Made by a program: the position numbers and the translations under genes. DNA of 64,000 bases, taken from the UHGV virus genome UHGV-0036853; one strand, 5' to 3'. The first letter of the stretch is position 1. Every line of letters begins with the position of its first letter. This document shows positions 16,876-64,000 of the stretch, in pieces. The notes under the pieces were generated by a model. It did no database searches, was not told the DNA's origin, and saw only the letters and a list, made by a program, of their open reading frames with translations. The DNA is from a virus.

Positions 16876-16879
16876 AATT

Positions 16880-16966: not shown

Positions 16967-16971
16967 TAAAT

Positions 16972-30189: not shown

Positions 30190-33100
30190 TCAGTTGCTTG
30201 TTGCCCCAACAGTACCGGCAAATTTCAGCCATTGACCTGACGGACTTCTATTACTACGGTAGTGATAAACGAGGATTGCGTTTGTCACTCCACCGTAGTC
30301 AGCTTTATGTGACGTTGTTAAACGAATTGTATAATCACCGTTAGGTAGATTAAAAACTTCGATTATAGATTCTGCTAATTCTACAGCACCAAATCCCGTT
30401 ATATTGTTGATACTGCCAGCATTGAATCCCATAGCATCGCCAAAGCCAATCCAATAACTTTTGCTAAATGCCCCATTTGATTTAAGGTGGCTAATGAATG
30501 TGGACAAACTCATGCCCATATCCCCACCAGAAACAGAGGAAGTTCGCACAGTCATGCTTGGAAGAGAACTACTCTTCACATAGGAACTGAGAAGGTTTGT
30601 TACCTCTGTTTTCGTATAAGCATTAAGGTTAGCCGCAGTCAAAGTTATATCGGCAGAGCCATCAAACGCCACACCAGCAATTTTCCTTGCTGTCTGCAAT
30701 TTTGTGGCGGTTGCAGCATTACCAGTAGTGTTCTGATTACCGGTCGTATTCACACCAGGTAAGTTAATATTGGCTGTACCGTTAAAACTAACACCACCGA
30801 TAGTACGAGCCGTTTGTAACTTCGTGGCTGAAGCTGCGTTACCAGTCGTATTCTGATTACCCGCTATATTAACACCCGGCAAGTTAATATTGGCGGTACC
30901 ATTAAACGACACACCTCCAATTGTTCTGGCTGTCTGCAACTTCGTTGCAGAGGCTGCGTTGCCAGTAGTGTTCTGATTACCGGTGGCATTGACACCTGGA
31001 ATAGAGTCTTTGGACGTATAAACTTGCGCCCATTCAGACCAACTGGATGCATCCGTATCTCGTCGCGAACGTACATGTACAGGCGCATGAGCACCACTTG
31101 TACCGCTCCAACCTATGAACAACTCACCTTCACCAACGGCCGTTGCGCCCTTAAGATGAAGCACATTCCCGTAAGTCGAAGGGTAGCCATTGTTATATGC
31201 CTCGTACATCTGCAATCCAGTCGCAGCACCTTGTGTTGTACCGGTGAGCGCAGTAACGCGTCCTCTGGACGTAATTGTTGGTATTGAAATATTCGCAGAG
31301 CCGTTAAACGACACCCCGTTAATAGTTCTAGCAGTTTGCAACTTGGTCGCTGTGGCCGCGTTACCGGTAGTGTTCTGATTACCGGCAGCATTAACACCAG
31401 GCAAATTAATATTCGCAGTGCCATCGAAGCTAACACCACCGATGGTTCTTGCTGTCTGCAATTTAGTAGCTGTAGCAGCATTACCTGTGGTGCTTTGGTT
31501 GCCAGCTTTGTTAACTCCGGGCAAGTCGATGTTGGCAGTTCCGTTAAATGAAACGCCACCAATCGTTCTTGCCGTTTGAAGTTTTGTAGCGGTTGCGGCA
31601 TTACCAGTAGTGCTCTGATTACCTGCCGTGTTTACACCAGGCAAATTTATGTTCGCAGATCCATCGAAGGCCACGCCGCCGATAGTTCTTGCAGTCTGCA
31701 ATTTCGTGGCGGTACTCGCATTGCCATTCAATGAACCAGTTAATCCACCAGTAACAGACAACGGACCTGAAACCGTCCCTCCTGATGTTGATAATGCACC
31801 TATATCCGATGGCGTAGGTTTGTATTTTGTATTGTAGTCTCGTCGCCAGCCTGGAGAATAATCTGTCCCGTGGTTAATATAAGTAAATTGAGCGTTAGCA
31901 GTACCACCACCGCTAGATGTTGTTGGTGTGGTAACGCGGATCGTCATTGCTGACTTTATCCCCATTACCTCAATTACTGCCCCGGCAAGATGAATATTGC
32001 CACAACCAGTATCAGTAATGATTTTGTTGTTGCCATACGACCATGAGCCTTTACACATCCAGTACGGATGATTAAACGCCCCTTGAGAGTCCAACCATTC
32101 GACAAACTGTGCCGTAGTCCAGTTTCCTGCTGTTGTACTTACAGAGCCTCCAAATGCTCGCCCAGCGCCAATATTTTTCGTGAAGGTATCCTTACCTGGT
32201 ATATCAGCACCATTCTGGTTCTTCGCCAATCGGCTATTCGCATTGTCATTCGCAGCTTTAACTGCCTTTGGAGTTGCAGCCAGTGATTCGCTGGTGCTAT
32301 CGACAGCACTGCTAAGTTTCACAACACCTTTAGTTGTAAGGCTTGCGTCTTCCATCGCAACTGCACCGGCAATCTCTTCAGCACGATCAGCGGCAGCTTC
32401 TGCACGGGTCGCAGCGGATTCAGCAGCAGTTTTGCTCTGAGATGCAGCCGTCGCACTGCCTGCCGCCTCTGTTGCTTTCGTGGATGCCGTTGAAGCACTA
32501 CCCTTCGCAGCTGATGCCTGCTTGGTCGCCTCATCCTTTGAAGCAGACGCCGAGGTGGCTGATGCTGACGCAGAACTTGCAGATTCAGCAGCCGCAGTCT
32601 TAGAGGAAGCGGCATTGTCTTCTGAAGACTTTGCATTTGTTTCAGAGGTTTTCGCTGCTGATGCTGAATTTTTAGCGGCTGTAGCCTGATTCGTCGCCTC
32701 AGTCGCTTTTGCGGTAGCTGTTGCCGCTGATGACGACGCGCTTTCCGCAGATTTTCCTGCCGCAGTTGCACTTGATGAAGCACTATCCGCACTTGCTGAG
32801 GCTGCGCTTGCTGACGCTTCTGCCGCAGATTTCGAACTGTTTGCAGACGATGCACTCTGCCCGGCTGCCGTTTCAGATGCTTTTGCGTTTGTCTCTGACG
32901 CTTTTGCTGCCTTAGACGAATTTTCAGCTTCTGTTGCAAATGATGCCGCCGCGTTTGCACTCGATGAAGCGTTAGCCTCTGATGCTTTAGCCGCATCCTT
33001 AGATGCAGAGGCACTGGACGCAGATGTGGCCGCCTCCGATGCTTTAGTCGACGCTACAGATGCTGATTCTGCTGCCGCGACATATGCTGATTCTGCGTTC

Positions 33101-33809: not shown

Positions 33810-36800
33810 TTACAGAAGGCCAATTCTTACTCGTAGGACGTTGTTATCGTCATAAACGTCAATCCGCTGACCATTTATGACCAGTCGCCCATTACCTCCG
33901 CTATTACCGTTGATCTCAAGCGTTCCATTTTTGCCGAACCGCCATCCAGATCTACCGCTAACAAAATTGGTAGATTGCAGATCGCCTACTTTTGCATTGG
34001 TGATTGTGCCATCCTTGATATACGCACCATTCATATAGGCGATACTGTTTTCGATAACAAATGGCGTGGTGATCTTCCCGTTAACAGAGTTGACCAAACC
34101 AAATCTGTCCGCCTGCACCAAAAACTGAGAAAGACCGGTGGTGTCGATACCAAGCGCAATACCGGCAACATACTTCTGCCCTCCGCTCGTTGAAGTCTCC
34201 ATTTTCAACGTCCACGCGGTTGAGACTTTTTTGTTGGTATCAGCAATGGCCGTTGCCTGCTGTTGAATTGTCGCGGTATTTCCATCCACCTCTGCTTTCA
34301 GAGTATCGATTCGCCCACTTAGAGCATTATCTGCCTGCGTTCTCGCTGTCGTTTCAGTTGTGACCGCCGCAGAAATGTTGGCTGCTGTTTGAGACTCTAA
34401 GTTTGTGATTTGAGTCGCCAGTGCCGCATCTTGCTCTGTACGCGTTTTCGTTTCGGTTGCTACAGCCGCTTTAATATCCTCTTTGTATTGAGAGGTCAGC
34501 TTGGTGATCTGAGATGACAACGCCGAGTCAGCATCAGTTCGAGCCTGCGTTTCAACTGCAACGGCCGCACTAATATCTTTCGCAGTCTGTGCTTTTAAAC
34601 TTGAAACCTCTTTTGTTAAAGCGGTATCACCATCTGCACGAGCCGTTGTTTCTCTGGCAAGAGATGCCTCGAGATCATTAGCTTTTGCTGTAAGAGACGT
34701 AATCTGAGTGGACAATGCACTATCGGCATCAGTCCTTGCCTTTGTCTCTACAGCAACCGCTGCGGCAATATCAGTTCCGGTCTGTGCTCGCAGGCTGTTA
34801 ATTTCTCGTGAGAGCGCCTGGTCAGCACTTGCCCTGGCCTCCTGCTCCTGAGTGATGGCAGCGGATATATCACCGTCAACCTTTGACTGAAGCTGGTTTA
34901 TTTGTTTGGCTAATGCAGAGTCCCCGCTTGCTCGAGCCTCCTGCTCACTACGTATTGCAGCAGAAATATCATCATCAACCTTTGCCTGAAGTTGGGTGAT
35001 CTGACTTGCCAGAGCCGAATCTTCCGTTGCTCGGGCTTCTTGCTCTTCCTTAATAGCTGCGACGATATCGTTGCTTACTTTCGACTCAAGCTGAGTGATC
35101 TGTGTCGTCAGAGCTTCATCGGCAGATGTACGAGCCTCCTGCTCTGTACTAATCGCCGCGCTGATATCTCCTTCAAACTTAGATTGCAGCTGAGTGACAC
35201 GCTTTGCCAACGCTTCATCGCCATCGGCACGAGCGGTGGACTCTTCCAGAATACTGGCCTTAATGTCTTCGCCAATTTCTACGCGAATTTCCTCAACCTT
35301 CGTGGCCATTGCAGACATATCATCAGCAAAGGTTTTCTGTGTTGTTGCGATCTTCGCGTTATTGACCATCTGCTTGTGCTGGTCTTCATCTTGACGAAGA
35401 GCCAGGTCAATATTTGTTTTGGCTAACGCCTCAATGTTCGTAGTCAGTTCTGCACTGGCACGATCGACCTCTGCAACCGTCTTTTTCATTTCTTCAACAG
35501 CAGCGGAGCTTTCCTCTACCGTTGACTGCAACACTTCCAGTTGTTTAGCGTTTGCAGCATCGCCTTCAACACGAGCCTCGCTTTCCTTAGCAATAAGAGC
35601 TGCTGCTTCATCTCTTGCAGCCTTTATTGCCTCGACTGTATTAGCGAGAGCTTTATCGTGTTCAGATACGGTGTTTTCGATTTCAACAATTGCAGCATCA
35701 GTAGCATCAATTTTTTCAAACGCTTCATTGACCTTGTCGATCGTTGCCGAAACCTCACCTTTAAGCTCGGTTTGTGCGTTCTCCAAAGCATCGCTACGCT
35801 CGTTGAATTTTATTTCAAAATCCGCGAGGTTATCGCTGAACTGCTTATCTAATTCAGCTATATCTTCCTTAACGTCGTTTACCGACCCCTCCAAAGATTC
35901 GACGCTCTGGTTGATATGCTCATTTAACTCGTCAACTGCTTCTTGAGAGGCTTTGCTGTTGATGTCCTCAAGCAGAGCCTGACCAAGCTCAGACGATGTA
36001 ATCTTACCTTCCAGGAACGACAGTACATCGCGAGTTGTCGCCTCTGTACCCAAGTTTGAGTTCGGAGGACTTAACATGCCGCGCTTGTTCGATGCTCGAA
36101 CCCAGTAATACCACGTTTCACTATCCCCAAGACCAGCATGTGTAAAGGTGGTGCTTGCAGACTCCGCGATCAGTTTCGCCGTATCCAGATTGTTGGTCTG
36201 GGATGCGTAAACATTAATGTGATCAAGGTCTACCGAATCTGGATTAACCCAATTTAGTATCACATTACGATAGTCTCCAACGGCCGTTAATGACGTTGGT
36301 GCATCCGGCGGTGTCATTGTGCCCAGCACCTGATAAACGGTACTGATAATTTCTGTTTTTTTACCGTTGAATGAAACCGCATACAGTTGGAAGTCGTAGC
36401 GTCCATTCTCCGCGACATTAACGATTTCGTATTGCTCTTCGGTTACACGCGCCGATTGCCAGTTCGATACATTGTTTTCATCAGAACGTCGCCAACTGAT
36501 CCAATACTCTGGAGATTTCCCTTCCCATGTTGCAGTCAGTTTTACTGACAGGTTTCCCGGGCTTGAGAGATAAGTCCCTTCAGTGATTTGCAAATTAGAT
36601 GGCTTGGAGTAAGTCGGGTCCAATACCGTCGTATTCTGCGGGATAAGCGTTGCACCATTGTCGATTGCCTCATATTTAGACGGATTGTTCTCAACAGCGG
36701 TGATGTCAAAGCTACCCGGCGTTTCCCCCTGCGCGATGTTAACGATGCGAACGCGCATAGGTTCGAGATCTGGTTCTGTAATTGTCCAGACACCGTTCAA

Positions 36801-49331: not shown

Positions 49332-49993
49332 GAATGGACCTCATCGTGACTACCATTGTGATATTCCACCTTCACGCGTTCTTTGTAGTGCTTGGTGATC
49401 TGCATATCCGGGCGCAGCGCGTTCTTCAGGTCTTCGTGAGTCGTCGCCACCATTACCGTCGCACCAACCTTTCGAGCGGCACGCTGGAGGTTAGACGCCA
49501 CAACCTGAGCGGTTACACGGTCGAGAACAGCGCCGAACTCGTCAGCAGCCCACACTTTAGCGCCTGACTCAATCAGTTTGGCAATCTTGAGACGATATTT
49601 CTGGCCGTCTGACATTTCAGAAGGCTTGCGAACAAACAGATATGCATCGTTCAGACCAGCCATAGATAACAACCCAAGCGCATCACTGGTCGTTTTGCCC
49701 AACTGATCGATGACGTTAACCTCATTATCGAAGGTAAAATCATCGATGGAGGCTACAGACAGCCCTTCATCCTTCATCTGTCGTTGCAACTCGCGCAGCA
49801 CAACGGATTTGCCGGAACCGGATTGGCCGGTGATGTACACCACATCGCCCTGCTTCACTTCCAGCTCCAGATTGTCGTAAAGCGTCCACTCTTTTTCGTC
49901 CAGGCCAAGCCCGAACGACTCAGCGATTTCCAACGTGCGCGTGGTTTTATTTACGCGTGTCTGAAACGATACGTTGATGATGTATTTGCTCAT
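49328..49993 (-). CDS. stand-alone ABC-type ATPase
   Basis: Walker A GQSGSGKS, signature-like MSDGQKYR, Walker B VWAADEF, H-loop TTHE. Confidence 0.7.
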   Translation of the reverse strand: MSKYIINVSFQTRVNKTTRTLEIAESFGLGLDEKEWTLYDNLELEVKQGDVVYITGQSGSGKSVVLRELQRQMKDEGLSVASIDDFTFDNEVNVIDQLGKTTSDALGLLSMAGLNDAYLFVRKPSEMSDGQKYRLKIAKLIESGAKVWAADEFGAVLDRVTAQVVASNLQRAARKVGATVMVATTHEDLKNALRPDMQITKHYKERVKVEYHNGSHDEVHS

Positions 49994-50691
49994 GCAGCCA
50001 TCTCCCCGGAAGAGATCTTCTCCGCATATGCCACAAATGCGTCTACCCCGCTTTCTCCCGTCATTTCTTCCATGTGGGCAAGCAAATCACCAACAACAAT
50101 GGCAGAGCCAGCAGGGAGCGTTTTAAAGCCCAATACGTCGACAACACGTACTTCTTCCGCTGCAACTTCACGACTGATCTCGGTGTGTTCATCCTTCTGT
50201 CGTTTAGTTTCTTCGCCAAGATCGATAACTAGCGAGTCGGTGTCCATTTCTTCTGTCATACTGCCAACGAGAACATTCAACTCACGCTCTTCAAAGCCGA
50301 AAACCTCGATATCGTCCAGAACAAGCGACTCAAGCTCTTTCTGTAGCTTAATTGCATCGTAATCAATGCTGGCAAGTCGGTTATCTTCAAGGCGCTTCGC
50401 ACGAACCTCGTCATCACTGAGATCATCGCGAACAATAACCGGTACGCGCTCAAGTCCAGCAAAAATTGCAGCCTCACGGCGGCCGTGGCCAGTAATAATT
50501 ACGTCGTTCTTATCGACCGTAATTGGCTGGTCAAATCCGCGCTTTTTAATGGCTGCGGCTAGATCTCGGATCTGCTGTTCATCATGCTTTTTGGCATTCA
50601 TCTCATAGGGAATAAGATCTGCCGGGTCGCGATATACGATTTCAAACTTTTTGGTCATTACATACGCTCCTTGTAGTAGTCGACCAGCCAC
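49990..50691 (-). CDS. ParB/Srx-like domain protein
   Basis: ParB N-domain motif ITGHGRREAA. Confidence 0.65.
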   Translation of the reverse strand: MAGRLLQGAYVMTKKFEIVYRDPADLIPYEMNAKKHDEQQIRDLAAAIKKRGFDQPITVDKNDVIITGHGRREAAIFAGLERVPVIVRDDLSDDEVRAKRLEDNRLASIDYDAIKLQKELESLVLDDIEVFGFEERELNVLVGSMTEEMDTDSLVIDLGEETKRQKDEHTEISREVAAEEVRVVDVLGFKTLPAGSAIVVGDLLAHMEEMTGESGVDAFVAYAEKISSGEMAA

Positions 50692-51356
50692 ACCAGAGCC
50701 TCACCAGCGTTCTCCATTTCATTACCGGTGTTAATAGCCTGTTCTTTGATGATGTTTTTTATGGTTTCTGCAACACGATCTGACGCATCGAAAGTTACTT
50801 TGAAGCGCATGGTCTGATGTTCCGCACCCACACGTTCGGTTTTCTCCCGTTTGTCGGTATCGACAGGCTCATCACTACCACGAGACAACGCCTCCAGTGC
50901 TTCAAGGTCGATTGCCGCCTCTTTTGCTAAAACCATCGAGATTTCGTCGTCATACGGGGCGATTTCAGACAGTTGATAGTCAAGTTCTGACTGAATTTCT
51001 TCAATGAAGCGTTGCAATGCGATTTGGTCGTCTTCACCGTATCGCTCGTTGTCCACCAGTGACATCTGTTTAGCTACGACATCGCTAATTTTGCCCACAG
51101 AAAGCACTGGAACCGTTGAAATTCCTTGCTCAATAGCGGCACGCCAGCGATGTTCACCGCCGAGGATTTCAAAAAATCCATCTTCAAGTTCACGAGCCAA
51201 AATTGGCTTAAAAAAGCCCAATTTTTCGATAGAACCTTTCAGTTTTTCAAAATTCTGCGCACCAACCGAATTGGTGTTCCAGGTATTCGGGCGAAGGTTG
51301 GCAACATCAACCTGCAAAATCGTGATTTTTACATCCATTTTATTGCTACAATCCAC
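50658..51356 (-). CDS. ParB/Srx-like domain protein
   Basis: ParB N-domain motif ILGGEHRWRAA. Confidence 0.65.
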   Translation of the reverse strand: MDCSNKMDVKITILQVDVANLRPNTWNTNSVGAQNFEKLKGSIEKLGFFKPILARELEDGFFEILGGEHRWRAAIEQGISTVPVLSVGKISDVVAKQMSLVDNERYGEDDQIALQRFIEEIQSELDYQLSEIAPYDDEISMVLAKEAAIDLEALEALSRGSDEPVDTDKREKTERVGAEHQTMRFKVTFDASDRVAETIKNIIKEQAINTGNEMENAGEALVWLVDYYKERM

Positions 51357-51420: not shown

Positions 51421-52980
51421 ATGACTGTTCGGATTGTATCTAACGCAGTAAATGCGCTTATTTCTGGCGCAGATGACAAGGTAAAGCAACTGGTGCAGCA
51501 AATGTTGAGCTACGAAGTCGAGACTGGCGACTGGAAGGGCACAAGCACGATGTTCAACTGGAGTAAAAACTCGTTCCCTGCTGGCTTTGCCAAGCCTGTA
51601 GCGGCGAACTTGAACAAGGCGGGCATCAAATGTGTTCATATCCGCAAAGACAAAGCCCCGGCGCTTGGTAAACCAAATCCGGCGGTTAACCCATTCCCAT
51701 ACAATCCTGATTATGCGTATCAGGATCAGACTGTGGAAACACTGGTTCGAGAGGGAATGATGATTGCGCAGATCGCTACTGGTGGCGGGAAATCTAACGT
51801 TGCCTGCAAAGCAGCTGCACGTATCGGTCGAATGACATTATTTTTAACAACCCGCTCTGTTCTGATGTTTCAAATGGCCGAAAACTTCCAGAGATCCATC
51901 GACTACCGCGCCGAAAATGGCGAACCGTGGTTAAAAGACCAAAAGGTTGGAGTCATTGGCTCGGGTGAGTTCCAGGTATCACGACATATCAACGTCGCTA
52001 CAGTTCAAACTCTTGCAAGTTTCCTCGAAGAACCACCACGCGATGCAACACCAGATAAGAAAAGCTACCACCTCAAACGTCGGGAGTTGGTGAAACGCTT
52101 CCTTTCAAGTGTCTCTCTTCTTATTCTGGAAGAGGCGCATGAGTCTTCAGGCTCAAATTTCTATGACATCGCCAGATTATGTGTGAACGCAGACTATCGT
52201 CTGGCGCTTACAGCCACGCCGTTCATGAAGGATTCGACGGAAGCCAACATGCGCCTGATGGCGGTGGCCGGGCGAATTGAAATTAAAGTCACAGAAAAGT
52301 ACCTGATTGATCGAGGCATTCTGGCAAAGCCGTACTTCCTTTATCATAAAGTTGCCTACAAGCCAGACGAGGCCAGAATCAAGGCCGAACTTGCCAACAA
52401 ACACCTAAATTTTAGAGTAGGTATGAGCACTGCCTACCAAAAGGCTTATCAGCTGGGCATCGTGTATAATTTGGGACGTAACGAGGCCATAGTACGAGAT
52501 GCATTGCTCTATAAGCAACATTCTCTCAATTGTATGACTCTGGTTCGTCTTAAACGCCACGGGCAAATCCTGATGGAAATGATGAAAGAGTCCGGCCTTA
52601 GAGTTGACTTCATCTATGGGGAATCTAACCAGGCCACAAGGCAAGCAAAGCTGAACAGTTTAGCGTCTGGAGAAATAGATGTTTTAATAGGCTCGACTAT
52701 TCTGGATGTCGGTGTTGATGTGCCAAGCGTTGGCGCGGTCATTCTTGCTGGTGGTGGGAAAGCAGAAGTTGAAATGAGGCAGCGTGTCGGTCGTGGCTTA
52801 CGAGCCAAGAAGAATCAGGCAAACGTATGTTTTATCACTGATTTTATTGACATTAGCAACAAATATCTGTTGTCTCACTCTTATGAGCGAAAACACATCA
52901 TCGACACCACACCTGGCTTTGCAGAAGGTGTATTGCCTATTGATGGCGCATTCGATTTTGGAGTTCTGAAACGAGATTAG
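51421..52980 (+). CDS. SF2 (DEAD/DEAH-like) helicase
   Basis: Walker A ATGGGKS, motif II LILEEAH, C-terminal helicase domain. Confidence 0.75.
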   Translation: MTVRIVSNAVNALISGADDKVKQLVQQMLSYEVETGDWKGTSTMFNWSKNSFPAGFAKPVAANLNKAGIKCVHIRKDKAPALGKPNPAVNPFPYNPDYAYQDQTVETLVREGMMIAQIATGGGKSNVACKAAARIGRMTLFLTTRSVLMFQMAENFQRSIDYRAENGEPWLKDQKVGVIGSGEFQVSRHINVATVQTLASFLEEPPRDATPDKKSYHLKRRELVKRFLSSVSLLILEEAHESSGSNFYDIARLCVNADYRLALTATPFMKDSTEANMRLMAVAGRIEIKVTEKYLIDRGILAKPYFLYHKVAYKPDEARIKAELANKHLNFRVGMSTAYQKAYQLGIVYNLGRNEAIVRDALLYKQHSLNCMTLVRLKRHGQILMEMMKESGLRVDFIYGESNQATRQAKLNSLASGEIDVLIGSTILDVGVDVPSVGAVILAGGGKAEVEMRQRVGRGLRAKKNQANVCFITDFIDISNKYLLSHSYERKHIIDTTPGFAEGVLPIDGAFDFGVLKRD

Positions 52981-52982
52981 TT

Positions 52983-53261
52983 ATGAGCGAAAAGAAAACA
53001 ACTTATTGTCAGGTGGCATTGTCTGATAAGGCCAATGACAAACTTGGAAAGTTTCAAATGAAACTAAAAGAAAAAAACATCAAAATGTCTAAGGCTGAAG
53101 TTATCAATACCATCCTAGAGGCGATGACGATGGCTGAGTTTGATAAAGTTTCCTCTGCCGTTGGAGTCTCTGCTAAGGCTCGTGAGAAAATCATGCGCAT
53201 CTATGAAAACTCTAATATGACAAAGGAAGACCTAGAACAAATTCTAAGCAAACTGCCATAA
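52983..53261 (+). CDS. small hypothetical protein coupled to helicase gene
   Basis: ORF. Confidence 0.4.
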   Translation: MSEKKTTYCQVALSDKANDKLGKFQMKLKEKNIKMSKAEVINTILEAMTMAEFDKVSSAVGVSAKAREKIMRIYENSNMTKEDLEQILSKLP

Positions 53262-53515
53262 CATTTCGCATTCCCTCCATCCGCCAATTCCAAGATGTGC
53301 TTACTTGTAAAAGGAGCACATCAATTGATGCGGCCTAGAGAATGAATTTAATCAAGACAAACATTGAATGATTAATAGACTACGATAGTGTCCAACAGGG
53401 CATTCTCATGTGACATTTGTCACATTTTTAACCGCATAAGTCTCCGGCTGAAAAAAGTTCTTGATTGGCTGAATGATATTTGTAGGCTTATCAATGTTTA
53501 TAGCCGGAGGTGTGA

Positions 53516-54058
53516 ATGGGTGTACTTGACATTGATAGTAATTACTTAAGTGCAAGGCGAATAAAGGAATGTGTTCATATCTATTGTAAATCAAAGCAGT
53601 CTTGTTTAGAAAAGCAGGCGTACCTAACATCTTCTCAAAAAGGAGAGCACAAACTCATCAAATATAAACTAAAGGCTTCGCGCAAAGATCGTTATGAGCA
53701 CTATATATACGTAAAGGATATTGAAGGTACCAAGACAAATTGCGGTATTATCTTTTATCCCTATGATATATCAAGACTGTTCTCCATTATGAAATCCTGT
53801 GTCGGCGTAGCTCCAGGTAAATTAGAGTTGCATTCAAACTTATACGATTACCCAAATGCTCAAAAACTGATAAACGATAGCACTTCGTCCTATGGATTTT
53901 CGTTTCTCTTTAAGAATCATCTCGCATTGAAAGATTTCATCGAAAAATACAATGAAGGAATAATATCAGGCGAATTAAATTTCAACAAAATCTGCGGAGA
54001 TATAAAAAGGGACGACCTCTTAATAGATATTTACAACAGAACCCAAGTTAACGTGTAA
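53516..54058 (+). CDS. hypothetical protein (AT-rich island)
   Basis: ORF, low GC. Confidence 0.45.
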   Translation: MGVLDIDSNYLSARRIKECVHIYCKSKQSCLEKQAYLTSSQKGEHKLIKYKLKASRKDRYEHYIYVKDIEGTKTNCGIIFYPYDISRLFSIMKSCVGVAPGKLELHSNLYDYPNAQKLINDSTSSYGFSFLFKNHLALKDFIEKYNEGIISGELNFNKICGDIKRDDLLIDIYNRTQVNV

Positions 54059-54085
54059 CCATCCATTAATCATAGCCAGACAAAT

Positions 54086-54505
54086 ATGAAAGTAACAAAC
54101 CTAATTATTTTAACACTAGCCACATCACTAATTGGGTGTTCATCTTCATCTATATCTGTTTCAAAGGCAAAGTATGCACCTCAAAGCAGAATATTTAAAT
54201 ATCAAACACCACATGAGTCTAGTCTAACAATAGTTAGAGACAAAGGGCTGGTTGGTTCTGGATGTAACGCTTCCATATTCATCAATGGAGAAACGGCAGC
54301 AAAATTGGAACCTGGTGAAAAAGCAACTTTCTATCTTAATGAAGGAGATTGGATCGTTGGGACATCAATTGAAAGTTCAGGTCTTTGCGCATTTAACCCC
54401 TCTAGGATGGAGCGAGAAATAAAACTAAAGCAAGGCGACGCGAAAACATATCGGGTTTTCACTACCTGGGATGGTACAATGGATATATTGCCAACCACTT
54501 TATAA
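54086..54505 (+). CDS. lipoprotein (AT-rich island)
   Basis: lipobox LIGC. Confidence 0.5.
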   Translation: MKVTNLIILTLATSLIGCSSSSISVSKAKYAPQSRIFKYQTPHESSLTIVRDKGLVGSGCNASIFINGETAAKLEPGEKATFYLNEGDWIVGTSIESSGLCAFNPSRMEREIKLKQGDAKTYRVFTTWDGTMDILPTTL

Positions 54506-54509
54506 TGAT

Positions 54510-55034
54510 ATGACGACGAAAGACATCACCTACGGTGTGCCAGCAGAAGTCTGGCCTCGAGATTACACTAACGTTGAAAAACTACTGATGTTCTGGCGCA
54601 GAGAACAAATTCCTGTAAGGGCCACTCTCGAAGATGGTCAGGCGTTTTGCATGTACGTTTATGGCCTCATGCCATCTCGTAACAAAGTTGACCTTTGCCC
54701 AGCCCCTTTTGACAAAGAAAATCGTATAAGGCTCCCAATTGAACGCATTAGTACAATTGAATCAGGTGTGGTTGACAGTATCGCTCACGATTTCAAAGGT
54801 CGACTAACAGTTCACCCTGATTATGTCGATAATCGGCCATCACGCCGCGATTTTTTTGCAATTTGCAACCAAGCCTACAAAGCAAACAAATCTATAAGGG
54901 TGTACATGGCGGATGGCCGTGAAATTGAGGGGGTGTCAGCAGGCGCAGATGCTTGTCAGGTTACACTACGTGTCGAGAACGGTAGAAAAATAGTTGTTTT
55001 GTTCGATTGGGTTGAACGAATTTTGCCTTTTTGA
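54510..55034 (+). CDS. hypothetical protein (AT-rich island)
   Basis: ORF; start moved to ATG after upstream stop. Confidence 0.45.
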   Translation: MTTKDITYGVPAEVWPRDYTNVEKLLMFWRREQIPVRATLEDGQAFCMYVYGLMPSRNKVDLCPAPFDKENRIRLPIERISTIESGVVDSIAHDFKGRLTVHPDYVDNRPSRRDFFAICNQAYKANKSIRVYMADGREIEGVSAGADACQVTLRVENGRKIVVLFDWVERILPF

Positions 55035-55037
55035 GTT

Positions 55038-55346
55038 ATGAAATCGATATTGTTACCACCATTATTTTTACTTTGCTCAGTTGCGGCAAATGCAATGGAC
55101 TATAAGCCTGTCATTCAGTCGCTGATGAATGACGTGTGCTCAACGTCTCAGAATGTATCAGTTTGCATGTATCAATTTTCGGCAGCCGTAAAAGCAGGAA
55201 AAGCGATAGGTGAGAATGTGGAACTGTGTAAGAAAGTGGCAAATGAAGAACGAGCAATGTTGGATTGCGAATCTAGCGAGTCATCGGCACAGTTCGTTGA
55301 TGCGCTATTTGACACCAATCGTAAGGCTGTAGAGTCTGTCCAATAA
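55038..55346 (+). CDS. small secreted Cys-containing protein
   Basis: signal peptide ending ANA. Confidence 0.5.
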   Translation: MKSILLPPLFLLCSVAANAMDYKPVIQSLMNDVCSTSQNVSVCMYQFSAAVKAGKAIGENVELCKKVANEERAMLDCESSESSAQFVDALFDTNRKAVESVQ

Positions 55347-55536
55347 ATCTATAAGGTTAATAACCGGCTAAGTCCGGTTATTATTTTTCACATCACTTCT
55401 TTATATCTATAAATCAAATAATCTAAATATATATAAGGTCGAAAGCCGTAATCGATTATTTATTTAGGGAACACCTTCGACGATCTCGCTTTTATTTCTA
55501 GGACTTTCATCCCTGCAAAAAATTTTAAAAAAACAC

Positions 55537-55564
55537 TTGCAATCTTTTTTCGCGTATCGATAAT
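55537..55564 (+). promoter_or_regulatory. sigma70-like promoter for 55630 gene
   Basis: TTGCAA, 16-bp spacer, GATAAT; strong RBS AAGGA before ATG. Confidence 0.5.
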
Positions 55565-55629
55565 TGAACTCGTCGAAAGCGAAGACGCTAACGACAATAA
55601 ATTTTAAATTTACATAAGGAAAAATTATC

Positions 55630-56280
55630 ATGGCTAACATTATCATTTCTAAAAAATCCATCATTGAAGCTGCTTCCATTGTATCCGATGAACTGCGCGA
55701 AAAAGCAGATCTGGCAACTCAAACATATAACGAACATTATAAAAATGGTACGCACACTAAAGCAGACAAAGCAAATATGCAAGCTGCGACCACTAAACTT
55801 GCTTACTTCATCAACAACGTCGTAAACGCAGTAGAAGACGAAAAATTATGCTCTGTTTTCTACTATGCGATTAAAGCAAGCAAACAAGCGCCAGAAGTAT
55901 TTTTCCGTGATGCAATGACTAATAGTTATTCACTGGAAAAACTGGTTTATCTGGTTAAATCCATTAAAGCTGGTAAATGCGTTTATTCCGTCGCTGATAT
56001 GTCAGGATCTCGTGTATTCGCTTTAATCGATATGATTAACGACGAGATCGACACGTTCACTAATGGCGCTGTTTTCGATTTAATGAATGAAGCTAAAAAA
56101 GCGTGCGAAATTAAATTGGACGCTGGCTATACTCAAGCCAACCAGTTGATCAATCTTTGCGAACGTCTCGGACTTGTTGAGAAAGTCAAAGGAGCTGGGA
56201 GCGCAAAAGCTGGTACTCAGCAATATCGCTTCATTAAAAATGATTTCTACAATTATTTAGCTGATGCTTTCAAAGCGTAA
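55630..56280 (+). CDS. hypothetical protein with own strong promoter
   Basis: 216-aa ORF. Confidence 0.55.
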   Translation: MANIIISKKSIIEAASIVSDELREKADLATQTYNEHYKNGTHTKADKANMQAATTKLAYFINNVVNAVEDEKLCSVFYYAIKASKQAPEVFFRDAMTNSYSLEKLVYLVKSIKAGKCVYSVADMSGSRVFALIDMINDEIDTFTNGAVFDLMNEAKKACEIKLDAGYTQANQLINLCERLGLVEKVKGAGSAKAGTQQYRFIKNDFYNYLADAFKA

Positions 56281-56292
56281 TTAATGGAATCA

Positions 56293-56311
56293 AGCGCCCA
56301 CTATGGGCGCT
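56293..56311 (+). terminator. hairpin, copy 1 of two identical ones
   Basis: agcgcccactatgggcgct. Confidence 0.5.
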
Positions 56312-56328
56312 TTAAAGGAGCTTTAAAA

Positions 56329-56532
56329 ATGGTCAGCTATGACAAGATCCGCGCAGAATATCGCGCAAAGTATCGCGCTTATAAACTGGAATTAATCGAT
56401 GATTTGATCGCGCAACGCGACCAATTAAATTTTACGTTTTCTGATTTGCTTAACAGCAAGCGAGATTGCAAGCGCAAACGTGAATACTTACGTTTAAGCA
56501 CATTAATCGGAAAACTTCAAAATTCTATTTAA
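56329..56532 (+). CDS. small hypothetical protein
   Basis: start after AAAGGAG. Confidence 0.45.
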   Translation: MVSYDKIRAEYRAKYRAYKLELIDDLIAQRDQLNFTFSDLLNSKRDCKRKREYLRLSTLIGKLQNSI

Positions 56533-56553
56533 TTTTTTTTAAGGAGCTTAATC

Positions 56554-56784
56554 ATGTTTGTTCTTATCGCTGGCGTTAACGTCCATAATGAATATTATGT
56601 TAATCGCATCGCTGGGATCGCTGGTTACGCTGGGCGCTCAGTCGAGCTTATAGATGAAACGACGCGCAAAATTGACTTATTGAGCGACCAGGAGCGAAAA
56701 AAAGCAGACGTGAACGACGCTGATATATTTTTAATGTTAAAAGCGTTTGTAGAAATGGGATTTGAAATCAGTTTACATAAATAA
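56554..56784 (+). CDS. small hypothetical protein
   Basis: RBS AAGGAG. Confidence 0.45.
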   Translation: MFVLIAGVNVHNEYYVNRIAGIAGYAGRSVELIDETTRKIDLLSDQERKKADVNDADIFLMLKAFVEMGFEISLHK

Positions 56785-56788
56785 AATC

Positions 56789-56815
56789 GAGCGCCCACTA
56801 TGGGCGCTTTTTTCG
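56789..56815 (+). terminator. intrinsic terminator, copy 2 of identical hairpin
   Basis: agcgcccactatgggcgct followed by TTTTTT. Confidence 0.65.
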
Positions 56816-57400
56816 TTTCCAATACTTCCACCATAACGCGCCATCATTGGCGCGTTTTTTATTGTCTTTGACTCACTCCAACAACATAAAAATAAGCGCC
56901 AAAATAACGCCATAGACGCGCTTTTATATCCTTGCCAGTACATACCCATTACTTAACGCATTAACGCGCTTAAAACGCGTTATATTGCGCTATAACGTAT
57001 GGCTAATCATTAATTTTTATTCTTGCTATGTGATCCGCGTTTATTTGTCGGCGCGGATCGGCATTTTGTGTTGTTCTGTGTCCGCTCGCGTATTATGTGC
57101 GCGTGATTTTTCACATAATCACACCACTTAATCACGTATGTGATTACGCTACGAAAGAAATCTGGATGTCTCAGGCGACGAAAGTCATCATGATTTTCCC
57201 CGCTCGCCTGTCCGACAACCGCTGGTTGGATTCCACCAGCTTCCCGATGTTTTTTCTACATAAAGGCGAATGCAGCCGTTTCCCGAAAAAATCCTGGCCG
57301 TTTCCCGTCGGCTCATGAATACGTTCCTCGCCGTTTCTGAAAATTTCCCTGCGGCAGCTGGTGGCTATAGAGAAAGGGCCGTTTCTGGCCCTCTTCTCAG

Positions 57401-57883
57401 TTACACGCCATCAAGGATGTGGATGCGGTTGCTTGTGTATACATTCAACATAAAGTTAGCGCAAAACAGTTTCCATGTATCAACGCCAGCGGTATACGTA
57501 ATGTTTTTGCATTTAATTGCATTGTTGGCGATCCGCATCCCCTGCGATACTGCTTCATCGTCGGAAAATTTGAACGACGATTGAGTTTTAATCCAGACAG
57601 AAATCTGCGTAGCGAACTCAATCAGCTTGGACTGGCAGAATCGCCCGGAGCGCACCGGAAAGACGAACGTTCCGAATCCAGAATTTACCACATACGCTTT
57701 CTCAAATACCCGCGAGTAACGACGATTGCCAATGATGTCGCGTGCAATAATGCATTTTTCTTGTGCTGACAGTTCTACCGTCTCATTGTCGCGCCATGCA
57801 CCAAGTACTCGTTTTTCAATGTCAGAGAACGTTACAGCGATATTGCCATGTGCGGGTGCGTTTACAGTAGCGATAAAATTCAT
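57401..57883 (-). CDS. hypothetical protein
   Basis: ORF with conserved upstream motif. Confidence 0.5.
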   Translation of the reverse strand: MNFIATVNAPAHGNIAVTFSDIEKRVLGAWRDNETVELSAQEKCIIARDIIGNRRYSRVFEKAYVVNSGFGTFVFPVRSGRFCQSKLIEFATQISVWIKTQSSFKFSDDEAVSQGMRIANNAIKCKNITYTAGVDTWKLFCANFMLNVYTSNRIHILDGV

Positions 57884-57900
57884 GATTAATTCCTTATAGT

Positions 57901-57950
57901 AAATAACAAATTGTTTTCTTGTTGGTGTTAATTATCGTTGTACGAATAAG
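57901..57950 (-). promoter_or_regulatory. motif family 2 copy
   Basis: aaataacaaattgttttcttgttggtgttaattatcg. Confidence 0.5.
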
Positions 57951-58087
57951 GCGTCAAAGTGGAAAGTTGCGGTAGCCGGACGGGAACAGGTGGGTTTGTC
58001 GGTTGCCTGGAGGTAAGAGGTTGGTGTTTTTAGCCTGCGGGAAACAGGATGGTCATTTAAGGCCACCAGCATTGGTGACCTTATTCT

Positions 58088-58388: not shown

Positions 58389-58440
58389 AAACATGTTGTT
58401 TTCTTGTTGGTGTAATTATCGCAGTGTAGATAAGGCATAA
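58389..58440 (-). promoter_or_regulatory. motif family 2 copy
   Basis: aaacatgttgttttcttgttggtgtaattatcg. Confidence 0.5.
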
Positions 58441-60526: not shown

Positions 60527-60580
60527 AAACAACATGTTTTCTTATTGGTGTTATTATCGCAATAACACACAGGCGAAAAA
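60527..60580 (-). promoter_or_regulatory. motif family 2 copy
   Basis: aaacaacatgttttcttattggtgttattatcg. Confidence 0.5.
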
Positions 60581-60699
60581 GGATTTTATTCCGGTGAATG
60601 TGGTTTTGGCAGTGAGTTTTCAGGTTCAGTACCGAGTACAATTTTTACATTATTCTGATTTAGTGGCCGAAGATGGCTGGTGGGCAGAATAATCCTCTC

Positions 60700-62000
60700 C
60701 CCGAAAACCTACTGAAATCGATTGTGACCCGCTGGCTGTCTGGCACAATTACGCTGTAGCTGGGCATTCAGAGGGAATCCAGCGGTAAGTAAGTCCGCCT
60801 GCACGTGAGCGTCTCTCTCCTTCCCGCACATTACAGGTGGGCAGCCGCAACTCTCCCTCACGCTATACCGGTACGCCACCGTTCCTGAACCGGCATCGAA
60901 CCTTTTCCCGAAATCCACACAGGCAACTCGACCGTTTCCCTGAAAACCTCCAGCCGTTCCCCGAAGGCAACCCAGCCGTTTCTGTAGCGGGATGCAGCCT
61001 TTTCCCTGTATGGACCGAAGGCTGACCGTAGGGGTGTTACGGGGGATAAAATCAGGAGTTGAATAAATACGAAAAAGGAGGCGACACCCCTCCTTCCCTC
61101 CCCACTTATACATACCTGGCTTCTTCGCTATACATGTTGTGTTTTATTCGTGTTTTATCTGTCTCAACCTCTCTATAGGCGTTAATGCTCACTCCTTCCA
61201 GAGCGTTCTATACGGCGACTATTCCTGTTGGTGAATTGGGTGTGTTGTTCTCTCTGTCGGTGTAAATGGTTTCGTTCGTTTTGCGGTGGTTCTTCTGTGG
61301 GGGTGTTCTCGTCGTTTTGGTGATTGTTCTTCTCCGTGTATGGAGTAATGGCAGGTGGGCGATTCCTTTCGTTATTGTGTTTGAGTTGTTTGTCTGGAGT
61401 GCGTGAAGGGCTTTTGTAGTTATTCGTGTATTGGGTAATGGCGTTTCCCGTGATTGTTATGTTTCGTGTCTTTTGGGATTGAGAGAATCCTTGCGGTTAC
61501 AGGCTTCGTTGGGTTTTCAGTGATTCTGGTGTTCTTCGCTGTTTGGGGAATGGCGTGTCGTGGGTATCGCGCGTGTGAATGTTTTCGGATTGCCTGTGAA
61601 AGTTAGGTTGGTTGTCCGGTAGCCTGGGAAGAAGAGGTGGGTCTTTTCGGTGGCCTGCCATAAAGAGGTTGGTTGTTTTTGGGAATGGCATGTGTGTTAT
61701 TTAGTTGTTTTGTTATGCCTGAAAATAAGTTGTTTATATGGTTGTGTAACGCAACGGGAGCGATTTTGAGCGTGTGTTTTTGTTGGTAGTGTGTTGAGTT
61801 GTCTGTGGTGAAAATTGGACGCTGTGGAGCTGTCTGCTGCGTAGGATTACGGGTATAAGAAGTGATGTGTGAAAACGTCAATTTTTTAGACCAAATCGGG
61901 TGAAAGCGTTGACGTTTCGTTGATCTGTTATTCAGTTGTTTTCTTGTTTGTATAAACAACTATAACCTATTGATATTTAAGGATGTGATTGCAGGCATGG
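60700..62000. other. ~1.3-kb gene-poor, strongly G+T-skewed (plus strand) region with spaced short repeats
   Basis: TTCCCnGAAA-like repeats at 60.70-61.0 kb; four spaced GGGnAATGGC-like repeats at about 61336, 61427, 61540 and 61681. Confidence 0.5.
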
Positions 62001-62087
62001 AAGGGGAGTAGTGGCGATCAACGGATTCTTATAGAAAAGAATCAAATTGTGACCGCCATTATCAACGGTTTGAATATGTTTTCAGAT

Positions 62088-62547: not shown

Positions 62548-64000
62548 TTACTTAACCTGGTGGCCTGGTTTAGCGCCAGCATCCGGGCTTAACAGGAAGA
62601 TATCTTTCCCGCCAGGGCCAGCAGCCATCACCATGCCTTCGGAGATACCGAAGCGCATTTTACGCGGAGCCAGGTTAGCCACCATAATGGTGTGACGACC
62701 AATCAGTGCCTGTGGGTCTGGATAAGCAGAACGGATGCCTGAGAAGACATTGCGTTTTTCACCACCGAGATCCAGTGTCAGACGCAACAGTTTGTCAGAA
62801 CCTTCAACAAACTCCGCGTTTTCAATCAGCGCCACACGCAGGTCAACTTTGGCGAAGTCGTCAAAGGTGATGGTTTCCTGAATCGGGTCGTCAGCCAGTG
62901 GGCCAGTTACCGGTGCGGCTGTGGCTTTCACTTCTTCTTTGGATGCTTCCACCAGTGCTTCCACCTGTTTCATATCGATACGGTTATACAGTGCTTTGAA
63001 CGGATTCACTTTATGGCTCAACAGCGGTTGCTGAATACCATCCCAGGTCAGTTCTGTATTCAGGAATGCTTCTGCACGTTCAGTCAGTTTCGGCAGTACC
63101 GGTTTCAGGTAAGTCATCAGCACGCGGAACAGGTTAATGCCCATAGAGCAAATCGCCTGCAGATCTGCATCGCGACCTTCCTGCTTCGCCACCACCCACG
63201 GAGCCTGTTCATCGACATAGCGGTTAGCCAGGTCAGCCAATGCCATGATTTCACGGATAGCTTTACCAAATTCGCGGCTTTCCCATGCTTCGCCAATCAC
63301 TTCAGCGGCATCAGTAAAGGTTTTGTACAGTTGCGGGTCAGCCAGTTCGCTTGCCAGCACGCCGTCAAAACGCTTGTTGATAAAGCCCGCATTACGGGAG
63401 GCCAGGTTAACCACTTTGTTCACGATATCGGCATTCACACGCTGAACGAAATCCTCCAGGTTGAGATCGATATCATCAATGCGCGAAGACAGTTTGGCGG
63501 TGTAGTAGTAACGCAGGCTGTCAGCGTCAAAATGATTCAGCCAGGTGCTGGCTTTAATAAAGGTGCCGCGAGACTTGGACATCTTCGCGCCGTTCACCGT
63601 CACATAGCCGTGAACAAACAGGTTGGTCGGCTTGCGGAAGTTGCTGCCTTCCAGCATGGCAGGCCAGAACAGGCTGTGGAAGTAAACAATATCTTTACCG
63701 ATGAAGTGGTACAGCTCGGCGGTGGAGTCTTTCTTCCAGTATTCATCGAAGCTGGTGGTATCGCCGCGCTTGTCGCACAGATTCTTGAAGGAACCCATGT
63801 AGCCAATCGGTGCGTCCAGCCAGACGTAGAAATATTTACCCGGCGCGTTCGGAATTTCAAAACCGAAGTACGGCGCATCGCGGGAGATATCCCACTGTTG
63901 CAGGCCAGATTCAAACCACTCCTGCATTTTATTTGCCACTTGCTCCTGCAACGCGCCGCTGCGGGTCCATGCCTGCAACATTTCGCTGAAAGAAGGCAGA
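62548..64000 (-). CDS. metG: methionine--tRNA ligase, C-terminal two-thirds (partial, continues past window end)
   Basis: KMSKS motif, anticodon-binding and C-terminal tRNA-binding regions read as E. coli MetRS. Confidence 0.9.

What the first reader, a model, noticed from the sequence alone, without database searches (positions are those of the whole stretch)
56800..57120. Hairpin-dense non-coding stretch after the AT-rich island
About 300 bp with at least five GC-rich inverted repeats, including aacgcgccatcattggcgcgtttttt and the palindrome aatcacgtatgtgatt, and no convincing ORF. It could be a stack of terminators, a small-RNA locus or a protein-binding origin-like region.
Basis: seen in the sequence. 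Interest (0 to 1): 0.35.

Follow-up and report, generated by a model that had tools for sequence, protein, structure and literature searches.

The report
Terminator stack beside iteron-like repeats
The hairpin-rich stretch is mostly a row of ordinary transcription stop signals where two opposing operons meet in an SSU5-type phage-plasmid, but the same unannotated gap also holds a conserved array of evenly spaced repeats that looks like a protein-binding site, possibly part of the phage's replication origin.

Summary
Window 56800-57145 is hairpin-dense: folding z is -5.0 on the + strand and -4.0 on the - strand, with 10 terminator-like sites against 2.5 expected. It has no conserved ORF.

The window is an E. 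coli SSU5-like phage-plasmid. The finding lies in a 616-bp convergent gap (56785-57400) that is conserved and unannotated in 784 plasmids, including Y. pestis pMT1 and S. Typhi pHCM2.

- **Left third:** tandem + strand intrinsic terminators. T1 and T2 are near-invariant and T3 is degenerate in this window. They close the rightward operon.
- **Hairpins at 57032-57145:** specific to this lineage. They surround a conserved -10-like TAT-N-AT.
- **Outside the flagged coordinates:** four direct GCCGTTTCY repeats (array A, spacing 22/33/48) abut the leftward operon's terminator and are flanked by an inverted pair of Chi sites.
- **Second module:** a paralogous array B (six repeats) lies 3.6 kb away. 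These are the only two clusters in a 109-kb relative.
- **Shared 9-mer:** the same 9-mer is one arm of the origin iterons in a lambdoid phage family.

I read the gap as terminators plus a phased protein-binding element, most likely related to a lytic origin. That function is inferred, not shown. No Rfam family, conserved RNA fold, initiator, AT-rich unwinding region or DnaA boxes were found.

The parts
56293..56311 (+). First copy of the T1 hairpin AGCGCCCACTATGGGCGCT, after the 216-aa ORF inside the rightward operon. Its T-run is weak, so it is probably an attenuator or processing hairpin.
   Evidence: Exactly two copies in the window against 0.01 expected. Both copies are kept in 9 of 10 relatives checked and are the only two in a 109-kb relative.
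56789..56814 (+). T1, an intrinsic terminator: 9-bp stem with 6 G-C pairs, 3-nt loop and T6. It starts 5 nt after the stop of ORF 56554..56784. It may also act on the - strand, where a T-rich tail follows in some lineages.
   Evidence: Stem and T-run are invariant in 11 sequences chosen by BLAST alone. The loop is sometimes inverted, ACTAT to ATAGT.
56835..56862 (+). T2, an intrinsic terminator: AACGCGCCA-loop-TGGCGCGTT plus T6.
   Evidence: The stem is near-invariant and the loop is free to vary. One-sided changes give G.U on the + strand. L093 carries a compensatory A-U to G-C change.
56895..56928 (+). T3 position. It is degenerate in this window (AAGCGC, 18-nt loop, GCGCTT, then TTAT). Most relatives have AAACGCG-N9-CGCGTTT followed by TTAT.
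   Evidence: (terminator scan of homologues) and alignment A2.
56939..56953 (.). Conserved block GTACATACCCATTAC, function unknown.
   Evidence: Nearly invariant in A1 and A2.
56962..56982 (.). Inverted repeat TAACGCGCTT/AAACGCGTTA. It occupies the position of the variable-number AGCGCGTTTT decamer repeats, which give phased T-tracts in relatives.
   Evidence: I14. Copy number is 2 in pMT1, 3 in most relatives and 5.3 in Buttiauxella.
57032..57059 (.). Hairpin GATCCGCG-N12-CGCGGATC, which carries the only two GATC sites of the gap. As a hairpin it is specific to the E. coli lineage.
   Evidence: The arms are not complementary in SSU5, pHCM2 or pMT1.
57082..57096 (+). Conserved CGCTCGCG followed by TATTAT (57091-57096). 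The pattern TAT-N-AT is invariant except at position 4, as in a -10 box. The only TTG-like -35 candidate sits at a 19-nt spacing.
   Evidence: This was the best conserved promoter-like position (median score 8.0). The stricter consensus scan found no promoter.
57092..57145 (.). TAATCAC occurs three times.
   Evidence: Relatives carry different sequence here.
57233..57240 (-). Chi site (GCTGGTGG on the - strand), to the left of array A.
57252..57268 (.). Conserved block TTTTCTACATAAAGGCG immediately before the repeats.
57272..57391 (+). Array A: four direct repeats with core GCCGTTTCY at 57275, 57297, 57330 and 57378, spaced 22, 33 and 48 bp. The fourth repeat lies inside the terminator hairpin.
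   Evidence: The cores are nearly invariant while the spacers vary.
57344..57364 (+). Conserved TTTCCCTGCGGCAGCTGGTGG, ending in a Chi site (GCTGGTGG, 57357-57364) on the + strand.
   Evidence: Invariant in A1. Chi is exact in most lineages and one base off in pMT1, SSU5 and E. cloacae.
57369..57391 (-). Intrinsic terminator of the leftward operon: GGGCC-AGAAAC-GGCCC followed by TTTCTCT, 10 nt after the stop of ORF 57401..57883.
   Evidence: Sequence and fold. The stem is GGGCC/GGCCC in E. coli types and GGGGC/GCCCC in the others.
60875..61013 (+). Array B, the paralogue of array A: six repeats at 60875, 60897, 60928, 60950, 60972 and 60994, spaced 22, 31, 22, 22 and 22 bp, in the same orientation as A.
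   Evidence: Also present in SSU5 and in Klebsiella-type relatives, and absent from the rearranged pMT1.
61072..61093 (-). Intrinsic terminator on the - strand (GGAGG-GGTGTCG-CCTCC plus T5) just upstream of array B in the - sense. This is the same arrangement as at array A.
   Evidence: Sequence and the alignment of modules A and B.

Best explanation
The flagged stretch is the left two-thirds of a 616-bp conserved non-coding spacer (56785-57400). In it, a short rightward accessory operon and the very long leftward DNA-metabolism transcription unit of an SSU5-type phage-plasmid meet head-on.

**Shown.**
- The first ~140 bp are tandem Rho-independent terminators for the rightward operon. T1 and T2 are strong and conserved; T3 is present in most relatives and degenerate here.
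- The leftward operon has its own terminator at 57369-57391.
- The hairpins at 57032-57145 are lineage-specific.
- Between the two terminator sets lies array A: four direct GCCGTTTCY repeats spaced in multiples of about 11 bp.
- Array A has a paralogue, array B, 3.6 kb away in the same orientation. Each array sits directly after a - strand terminator.

**Inferred.**
- The arrays are binding sites for one phage-encoded DNA-binding protein that loads cooperatively on one face of the helix.
- The two arrays act together as a cis element of the phage rather than of the plasmid.
- The role I favour is a bipartite iteron-type lytic replication origin or enhancer, working like phage P4 ori plus crr or like the iterons of lambda-type origins.
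- The inverted Chi pair would then shield the element from RecBCD coming from either side.
- The conserved -10-like TAT-N-AT may drive rightward transcription across the array.
For: **Identity and context.**
- The window is 96% identical to Escherichia phages CMS-2020a, PhiR41_1 and Cyrano.
- The gene map of a 99%-identical plasmid shows convergent operons at the gap.

**Conservation.**
- 784 PLSDB plasmids match the gap, 374 of them over at least 80% of its length. None carries an annotation apart from spurious small CDS.

**Terminators.**
-.

**Arrays.**
- GCCGTTTCY occurs 7 times in the window against 1.1 expected, with 4 copies inside 110 bp.
- A position-weight scan finds only clusters A and B in the 64-kb window and in the whole 109-kb relative.
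- Modules A and B align, terminator hairpin included.
- Array B is kept in SSU5 and in Klebsiella-type relatives.

**Link to the phage rather than the plasmid.**
- The gap is conserved across hosts whose plasmid replicon types differ: IncFIB, rep_cluster_488 and rep_cluster_763.
- Array B is lost in pMT1.

**Iteron analogy.**
- The same 9-mer is the conserved arm of the ATTCGGC-N6-GCCGTTTCC iterons. These lie inside O-like replication initiator genes (phrog_9773) of a lambdoid phage family.

**Chi.**
- 19 sites in the window against 1.4 expected.
- The inverted pair around array A is present in 62 of 72 unique homologues. The left site sits at a different distance from the repeats in this window's own version of the segment.
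Against: - No AT-rich unwinding region is conserved next to array A. The only AT-rich patch, 56980-57019, is specific to this lineage.
- DnaA boxes are at chance level.
- No initiator was identified. The adjacent 160-aa protein has no Pfam family and no fold match. No local small protein resembles the O-like initiator: tblastn was negative and hhalign probabilities were 1% or less.
- GC skew of the whole plasmid falls monotonically and shows no origin signature.
- The shared 9-mer was found by searching for it, so its presence in lambdoid iterons may be coincidence.
- T3 is weak in this window, and the -10-like element has no good -35. The consensus promoter scan found none.
- Nothing here shows termination, protein binding or replication directly.
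Confidence: 0.5

Rival explanations
1. Operator or roadblock arrays. The GCCGTTTCY repeats bind a phage transcription regulator. It either backs up the adjacent terminators as a roadblock, insulating neighbouring operons, or controls promoters of the 57401-60535 gene block. There is no role in replication.
For: Both arrays sit directly after a - strand terminator and bracket one block of six small leftward genes. Direct repeats at 11- or 22-bp phasing are also typical of response-regulator-type activators (general knowledge). No unwinding region or initiator was found.
Against: Four to six phased sites are many for an operator. No recognisable promoter lies next to array A. No DNA-binding regulator was identified among the neighbours.
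Confidence: 0.2
2. Terminators only. The gap is just the buffer between convergent operons. Apart from the terminators, the conserved blocks and repeats have no function of their own.
For: T1, T2 and the - strand terminator explain the strongest hairpins. The central 150 nt has been replaced in three lineages.
Against: The repeat cores are nearly invariant while the overall identity of the gap falls to 60-68%. A second, paralogous array is kept 3.6 kb away. Spacing of 22 and 33-34 bp is preserved. The Chi pair is kept.
Confidence: 0.12
3. A rightward non-coding RNA. The conserved TAT-N-AT fires a ~150-300-nt transcript. It acts as an sRNA, or as an antisense RNA to the 3' end of the 160-aa gene.
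For: The -10-like pattern is invariant except at position 4. Small hairpins downstream keep 96% pairing, with one compensatory pair. The one-sided changes that keep a pair all give G.U, which pairs only on the + strand. The window's own version folds with z = -5.0 on the + strand.
Against: There is no Rfam family, and the covariation term is about 0. The segment folds no better than shuffles in SSU5, pHCM2 and pMT1-type sequences, with z from +0.9 to -0.8. No + strand terminator follows. There is no good -35. The pMT1 sRNA catalogue (PMC3770706) places its three pMT1 RNAs elsewhere.
Confidence: 0.1
4. A centromere (partition site) or an origin of transfer. The repeats would be bound by the ParB-like proteins encoded 6 kb upstream, or the hairpins would be nicked by a relaxase supplied in trans.
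For: Two ParB N-terminal-domain genes lie at 49990-51356. Dispersed centromere sites are known in phage-plasmid N15 (from memory).
Against: The site is not adjacent to any par operon. The repeats are asymmetric, unlike palindromic parS. 757 of 784 matching plasmids are typed non-mobilizable. pMT1 is maintained without array B.
Confidence: 0.05

Closest known systems
Tandem Rho-independent terminators at convergent operon ends
   Same: A GC-rich stem with a T-run directly after the stop codon, two to three in series on one strand, and an opposing terminator for the other operon.
   Different: The T1 and T2 stems are sequence-invariant across genera rather than drifting through compensatory changes. 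T1 exists as two identical copies within the same operon.
Lambda-type origin iterons, in particular the ATTCGGC-N6-GCCGTTTCC iterons inside O-like initiator genes (phrog_9773) of a lambdoid phage family (L119 and others)
   Same: Four to six direct repeats about two helical turns apart, with an identical 9-mer GCCGTTTCC.
   Different: Here the repeats are non-coding and lack the inverted ATTCGGC arm. No O-like protein is encoded, and no adjacent AT-rich, GATC-rich unwinding region is conserved.
Satellite phage P4 ori plus crr, a bipartite origin (from memory, not tested)
   Same: Two separated clusters of the same short iteron, a few kb apart in the same orientation.
   Different: No alpha-type primase-helicase initiator is linked to the sites, and no replication data exist.
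Chi sites (GCTGGTGG), the RecBCD regulatory sequence
   Same: Exact octamers, about 13-fold over-represented in the element. The pair around array A is oriented so that RecBCD arriving from either side meets an active Chi, as around a bidirectional origin in E. coli.
   Different: There is no statistically clear genome-wide switch of Chi orientation at the gap (9:3 against 4:6). Activity was not tested.

Membership tests
Intrinsic (Rho-independent) terminator | GC-rich stem-loop followed within 0-2 nt by a T-run | tested here: met
   T1 has 9 bp with 6 G-C pairs plus T6. T2 has 9 bp with 6 G-C pairs plus T6. The - strand terminator is at 57369-57391. T3 is weak in this window.
Intrinsic (Rho-independent) terminator | Lies just downstream of a gene on the same strand | tested here: met
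   T1 starts 5 nt after the stop of ORF 56554..56784. The - strand terminator lies 10 nt after the stop of ORF 57401..57883.
Intrinsic (Rho-independent) terminator | Transcripts end there | not testable with these tools
   Needs Term-seq or 3' RACE.
Iteron-type replication origin | Three or more direct repeats in helical phase | tested here: met
   Array A has 4 sites spaced 22/33/48 bp. Array B has 6 sites spaced 22/31/22/22/22 bp.
Iteron-type replication origin | Adjacent AT-rich unwinding element | tested here: not met
   GC is 45-55% around array A. The AT-rich patch at 56980-57019 is lineage-specific. A conserved ~35-bp AT-rich stretch exists only next to array B.
Iteron-type replication origin | DnaA boxes or other host-factor sites | tested here: not met
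   One relaxed match in the gap; the window has 5 against 7.5 expected.
Iteron-type replication origin | Cognate initiator gene | tested here: inconclusive
   There is no O-like or RepA-like homologue nearby. The neighbouring proteins are of unknown function.
Iteron-type replication origin | Supports replication | not testable with these tools
   Needs an origin-trap or marker-frequency experiment.
Known small RNA or cis-regulatory RNA family (Rfam 15) | Match at or above a family's gathering score | tested here: not met
   Only three tRNAs in the window reach threshold. The best sub-threshold hit in the gap scores 26.9 bits against a threshold of 56.4.
Structured non-coding RNA (any) | Conserved fold with covariation and stability above shuffles | tested here: inconclusive
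   Covariation terms are -2.1 and +0.4 kcal/mol. Hand-picked hairpins have one compensatory pair, with 40 of 500 shuffles reaching the observed score. z is about 0 in most lineages.
Chi (RecBCD) site | Exact GCTGGTGG | tested here: met
   57233-57240 on the - strand and 57357-57364 on the + strand.
Protein-coding gene | Reading frame conserved among homologues | tested here: not met

The most novel reading that the evidence does not exclude
Arrays A and B are the two halves of a previously unrecognised bipartite, iteron-type lytic replication origin shared by the whole SSU5 supergroup of phage-plasmids, which includes pMT1 of Y. pestis and pHCM2 of S. Typhi. In this reading, the origin is bound by a still-unidentified phage initiator. 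It is shielded from RecBCD by Chi sites facing outwards. It may be fired by transcription, with the strongly G+T-skewed 850 nt next to array B forming an R-loop that the phage's own RNase HI and UvsW-like helicase would process.
Probability: 0.2. Interest if true: 0.65.

Novelty: new member of a known kind. Interest (0 to 1): 0.4.

Why it matters
SSU5-type phage-plasmids are common in clinical Escherichia, Klebsiella, Salmonella, Enterobacter and Yersinia, and some carry resistance genes. Their cis-acting sites are essentially uncharted.

This gap is conserved in nearly 800 sequenced plasmids and is annotated in none. Showing that most of its hairpins are ordinary terminators removes a false lead.

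The paired, phased repeat arrays with flanking Chi sites give a concrete and cheap target for finding the lytic origin, or a key regulator-binding site, of this family.

Tried and rejected
- **Rfam.** Searches at gathering and at permissive thresholds found no family.
- **Small ORF in the gap.** The frame is not conserved.
- **Consensus RNA structure.** The whole gap and the central segment show little covariation. Comparing + and - strand stability in 13 homologues gave no consistent signal.
- **Promoters.** The consensus sigma-70 scan found none. My own position-weight scan gave only the TAT-N-AT site.
- **The 160-aa neighbour.** No Pfam family. Homologues occur only in SSU5-like elements. 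The AlphaFold2 model has pLDDT 80 and no PDB fold match, best E = 0.33.
- **O-like initiator homologue.** tblastn and hhalign against 12 local protein families were negative.
- **P1-type RepA iterons and the Cyrano repA primers.** Absent from the window and from the closest plasmid.
- **DnaA boxes.** At chance level.
- **Whole-plasmid GC skew.** Monotone, with no origin signature.
- **Published pMT1 sRNAs.** sR082, sR083 and sR103 map elsewhere on pMT1.
- **XerCD (dif/cer-like), Tus (Ter) and sigma-54 motifs.** Checked by eye against remembered consensus sequences. No conserved match was seen. This is not a formal test.
- **Unread paper.** A 2026 preprint on phage-plasmid heteroresistance mentions pMT1, pHCM2 and an origin of replication. 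It could not be opened.

Full report
**What the window is.** The region 56500-57500 is 96% identical to Escherichia phages CMS-2020a, PhiR41_1 and Cyrano, and matches Salmonella phage SSU5 more distantly. The window is therefore part of an SSU5-type phage-plasmid. Annotated relatives show the layout.
- Almost all genes run leftward, on the - strand.
- A short rightward block (51421-56784) diverges from the ParB-like and terminase block.
- This rightward block meets the end of a very long leftward run of DNA-metabolism genes head-on.
- The finding lies in the resulting convergent gap, 56785-57400 (616 bp), between ORF 56554..56784 (+) and ORF 57401..57883 (-).

**Checking the observation.** The quoted palindrome AATCACGTATGTGATT is at 57130-57145, just beyond the stated end.
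- Terminator-like sites number 10 in 56200-58000 against 2.5 +/- 1.6 in shuffles.
- Folding of 56785-57120 gives z = -4.98 on the + strand and -3.98 on the - strand.
- The right half of the gap gives z = -3.9 and -2.85.
- No ORF is credible. The 50-aa CDS that PGAP calls in a 99%-identical E. albertii plasmid changes frame and length, or lacks its ATG, among 72 unique homologues.

**Conservation.** The gap matches 784 PLSDB plasmids from Klebsiella, Escherichia, Enterobacter, Yersinia (pMT1), Salmonella (pHCM2), Citrobacter and Cronobacter.
- 374 of them match over at least 80% of its length, at identities down to 66%.
- No meaningful annotation exists anywhere.
- I aligned 11 sequences chosen by BLAST alone (A1) and 18 diverse ones (A2). 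I also collected 72 unique versions from 85 loci.
- Overall identity to the window falls to 60-68%, yet sharply conserved islands remain.

**The left part is a terminator stack.**
- T1 (56789-56814) and T2 (56835-56862) are 9-bp stems with 6 G-C pairs, each followed by T6. T1 begins 5 nt after the operon's last stop codon.
- Both stems are essentially invariant, while the T2 loop varies freely.
- The few stem changes give G.U on the + strand. One lineage (L093) shows a compensatory A-U to G-C change.
- Most relatives have a third hairpin plus T-run, AAACGCG-N9-CGCGTTT. In this window it is degenerate, at 56895-56928.
- T1 has an identical second copy at 56293-56311 inside the operon. These are the only two copies in the 109-kb relative, and both are kept in 9 of 10 relatives checked.
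- The leftward operon ends in its own terminator at 57369-57391. Its stem differs in a compensatory way between lineages: GGGCC/GGCCC against GGGGC/GCCCC.

**The remaining flagged hairpins are lineage-specific.**
- GATCCGCG-N12-CGCGGATC (57032-57059) and the hairpins at 57092-57145 have no counterpart in SSU5, pHCM2 or pMT1. The central ~150 nt exists in three unrelated versions.
- What is conserved there is CGCTCGCG followed by TAT-N-AT (57082-57096). Its pattern of invariance resembles a -10 box.
- My position-weight scan ranks it the best conserved promoter-like position.
- However, its only -35 candidate sits at a 19-nt spacing, and the stricter consensus scan finds no promoter.

**Is there a rightward RNA?**
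- Evidence for: three small hairpins downstream keep 96% pairing, with one compensatory pair. The one-sided changes that keep a pair all give G.U pairs that work only on the + strand.
- Evidence against: RNAalifold's covariation term is about zero. The segment folds no better than shuffles in most lineages. Rfam has nothing. The published Y. pestis RNA-seq catalogue puts its three pMT1 RNAs elsewhere.
- I rate a small-RNA locus as possible but weak.

**The conserved array lies outside the flagged coordinates.**
- At 57272-57391 there are four direct repeats with core GCCGTTTCY, spaced 22, 33 and 48 bp. The last one lies inside the leftward terminator hairpin.
- The cores are nearly invariant and the spacers vary. 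The 22 and 33-34 bp spacings are kept in relatives.
- A scan of IMG/VR for two such cores 10-16 nt apart found a second copy of the array in SSU5-like genomes. That led me to window 60875-61013 (array B): six repeats spaced 22/31/22/22/22 bp, in the same orientation.
- A weight-matrix scan finds only these two clusters in the window and in the complete 109-kb relative.
- Modules A and B align with each other, including a - strand terminator hairpin on the same side.
- Array B is present in SSU5 itself. It is missing from pMT1, where that region is rearranged.

**A shared 9-mer with lambdoid origin iterons.**
- The same IMG/VR scan showed that GCCGTTTCC is the conserved arm of 22-25-bp-spaced iterons, ATTCGGC-N6-GCCGTTTCC.
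- These lie next to a GATC-rich AT stretch inside the gene for an O-like replication initiator (phrog_9773) in a family of lambdoid phages. That is the classical lambda origin layout.
- This shows what such arrays can do. Because I found it by searching for that 9-mer, it is an analogy rather than evidence of relationship.

**Chi sites.**
- The conserved block after repeat 3, TTTCCCTGCGGCAGCTGGTGG, ends in the RecBCD Chi octamer.
- Chi occurs 19 times in the window against 1.4 expected.
- One Chi on the - strand (57233) and one on the + strand (57357) flank array A, so RecBCD arriving from either side meets an active Chi first. This orientation argument rests on established RecBCD biology.
- The pair is present in 62 of 72 unique homologues.
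- Another Chi, conserved in the one Klebsiella-type relative examined, lies about 200 bp left of array B.
- The genome-wide Chi orientation bias changes only weakly at the gap, 9:3 against 4:6.

**Interpretation.**
- Shown: a terminator stack, an opposing terminator, lineage-specific hairpins, and two paralogous, phased, strongly conserved repeat arrays that are unique in the genome.
- Inferred: the arrays bind a phage protein on one face of the helix. I assign them to the phage rather than to plasmid maintenance for two reasons. The gap is conserved across hosts with different plasmid replicon types, and pMT1 is maintained without array B.
- I favour an origin or origin-enhancer role, like lambda iterons or P4 ori/crr.
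- Against that reading, there is no conserved unwinding region at array A, DnaA boxes are at chance level, and GC skew gives no signal.
- No initiator was found either. The 160-aa neighbour has no family or fold match, and no local protein resembles the O-like initiator.
- An operator or roadblock role is the main rival.

**Verdict.** The flagged feature is real and largely ordinary: transcription terminators at a convergent junction. The surrounding gap contains an undescribed, family-wide cis element that deserves a simple experimental test.

Noticed in passing
window 60550-62050: A second large ORF-poor region of about 1.5 kb, unannotated in the PGAP-annotated relative. It holds array B. 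It also holds an 850-nt stretch (61100-61950) that is strongly G+T-rich on the + strand (GC skew +0.32, AT skew -0.35), with degenerate ~100-nt repeats containing GGAATGGC/GTAATGGC.
   Followed up: partly
whole window, e.g. 7664, 7769, 7923, 57233, 57357, 60676: The Chi octamer GCTGGTGG occurs 19 times in 64 kb against 1.4 expected from shuffles. That density matches or exceeds the E. coli chromosome and suggests selection for protection from RecBCD.
   Followed up: partly
window 57915-57930, 58400-58415, 60538-60553: The conserved motif TTTCTTGTTGGTGTTA occurs 3 times against 0.15 expected. Each copy lies just upstream, in the - sense, of the start of a small leftward gene. It may be a shared promoter or translation-control element.
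   Followed up: no
window 54471-55034 (+): A protein with a full-length match to Pfam Flag1_repress (FljA, repressor of phase-1 flagellin; E = 1e-83) and a faint Hfq-like hit. It is encoded in the AT-rich rightward operon that the terminators close.
   Followed up: no
window 16803-17046 (-): Three tandem tRNA genes, with bit scores of 75.5, 69 and 41.9 to Rfam tRNA.
   Followed up: no
window 62548-63981 (-), running off the window end: A methionyl-tRNA synthetase gene carried by the phage-plasmid. It is annotated as metG in relatives.
   Followed up: no
window 14957-15865 (+): A 302-aa ORF in a very AT-rich island (GC 0.31) between the integrase/glutaredoxin genes and the tRNAs. It looks like an acquired accessory or defence gene.
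   Followed up: no
window 30659-31726 and 34837-35045: Long tandem repeats with periods of 120 and 99 nt and 71-75% matches. From the gene map of the relative they probably lie inside tail or tail-fibre genes.
   Followed up: no
L017 3912-3964 (Buttiauxella relative); equivalent to window ~56960-57000: The decamer AGCGCGTTTT varies in copy number between relatives: 2 in pMT1, 3 in most, 5.3 in Buttiauxella. A neighbouring TCTGGCGAYR decamer also varies. The resulting T-tracts, phased at 10-11 bp, should bend the DNA.
   Followed up: partly
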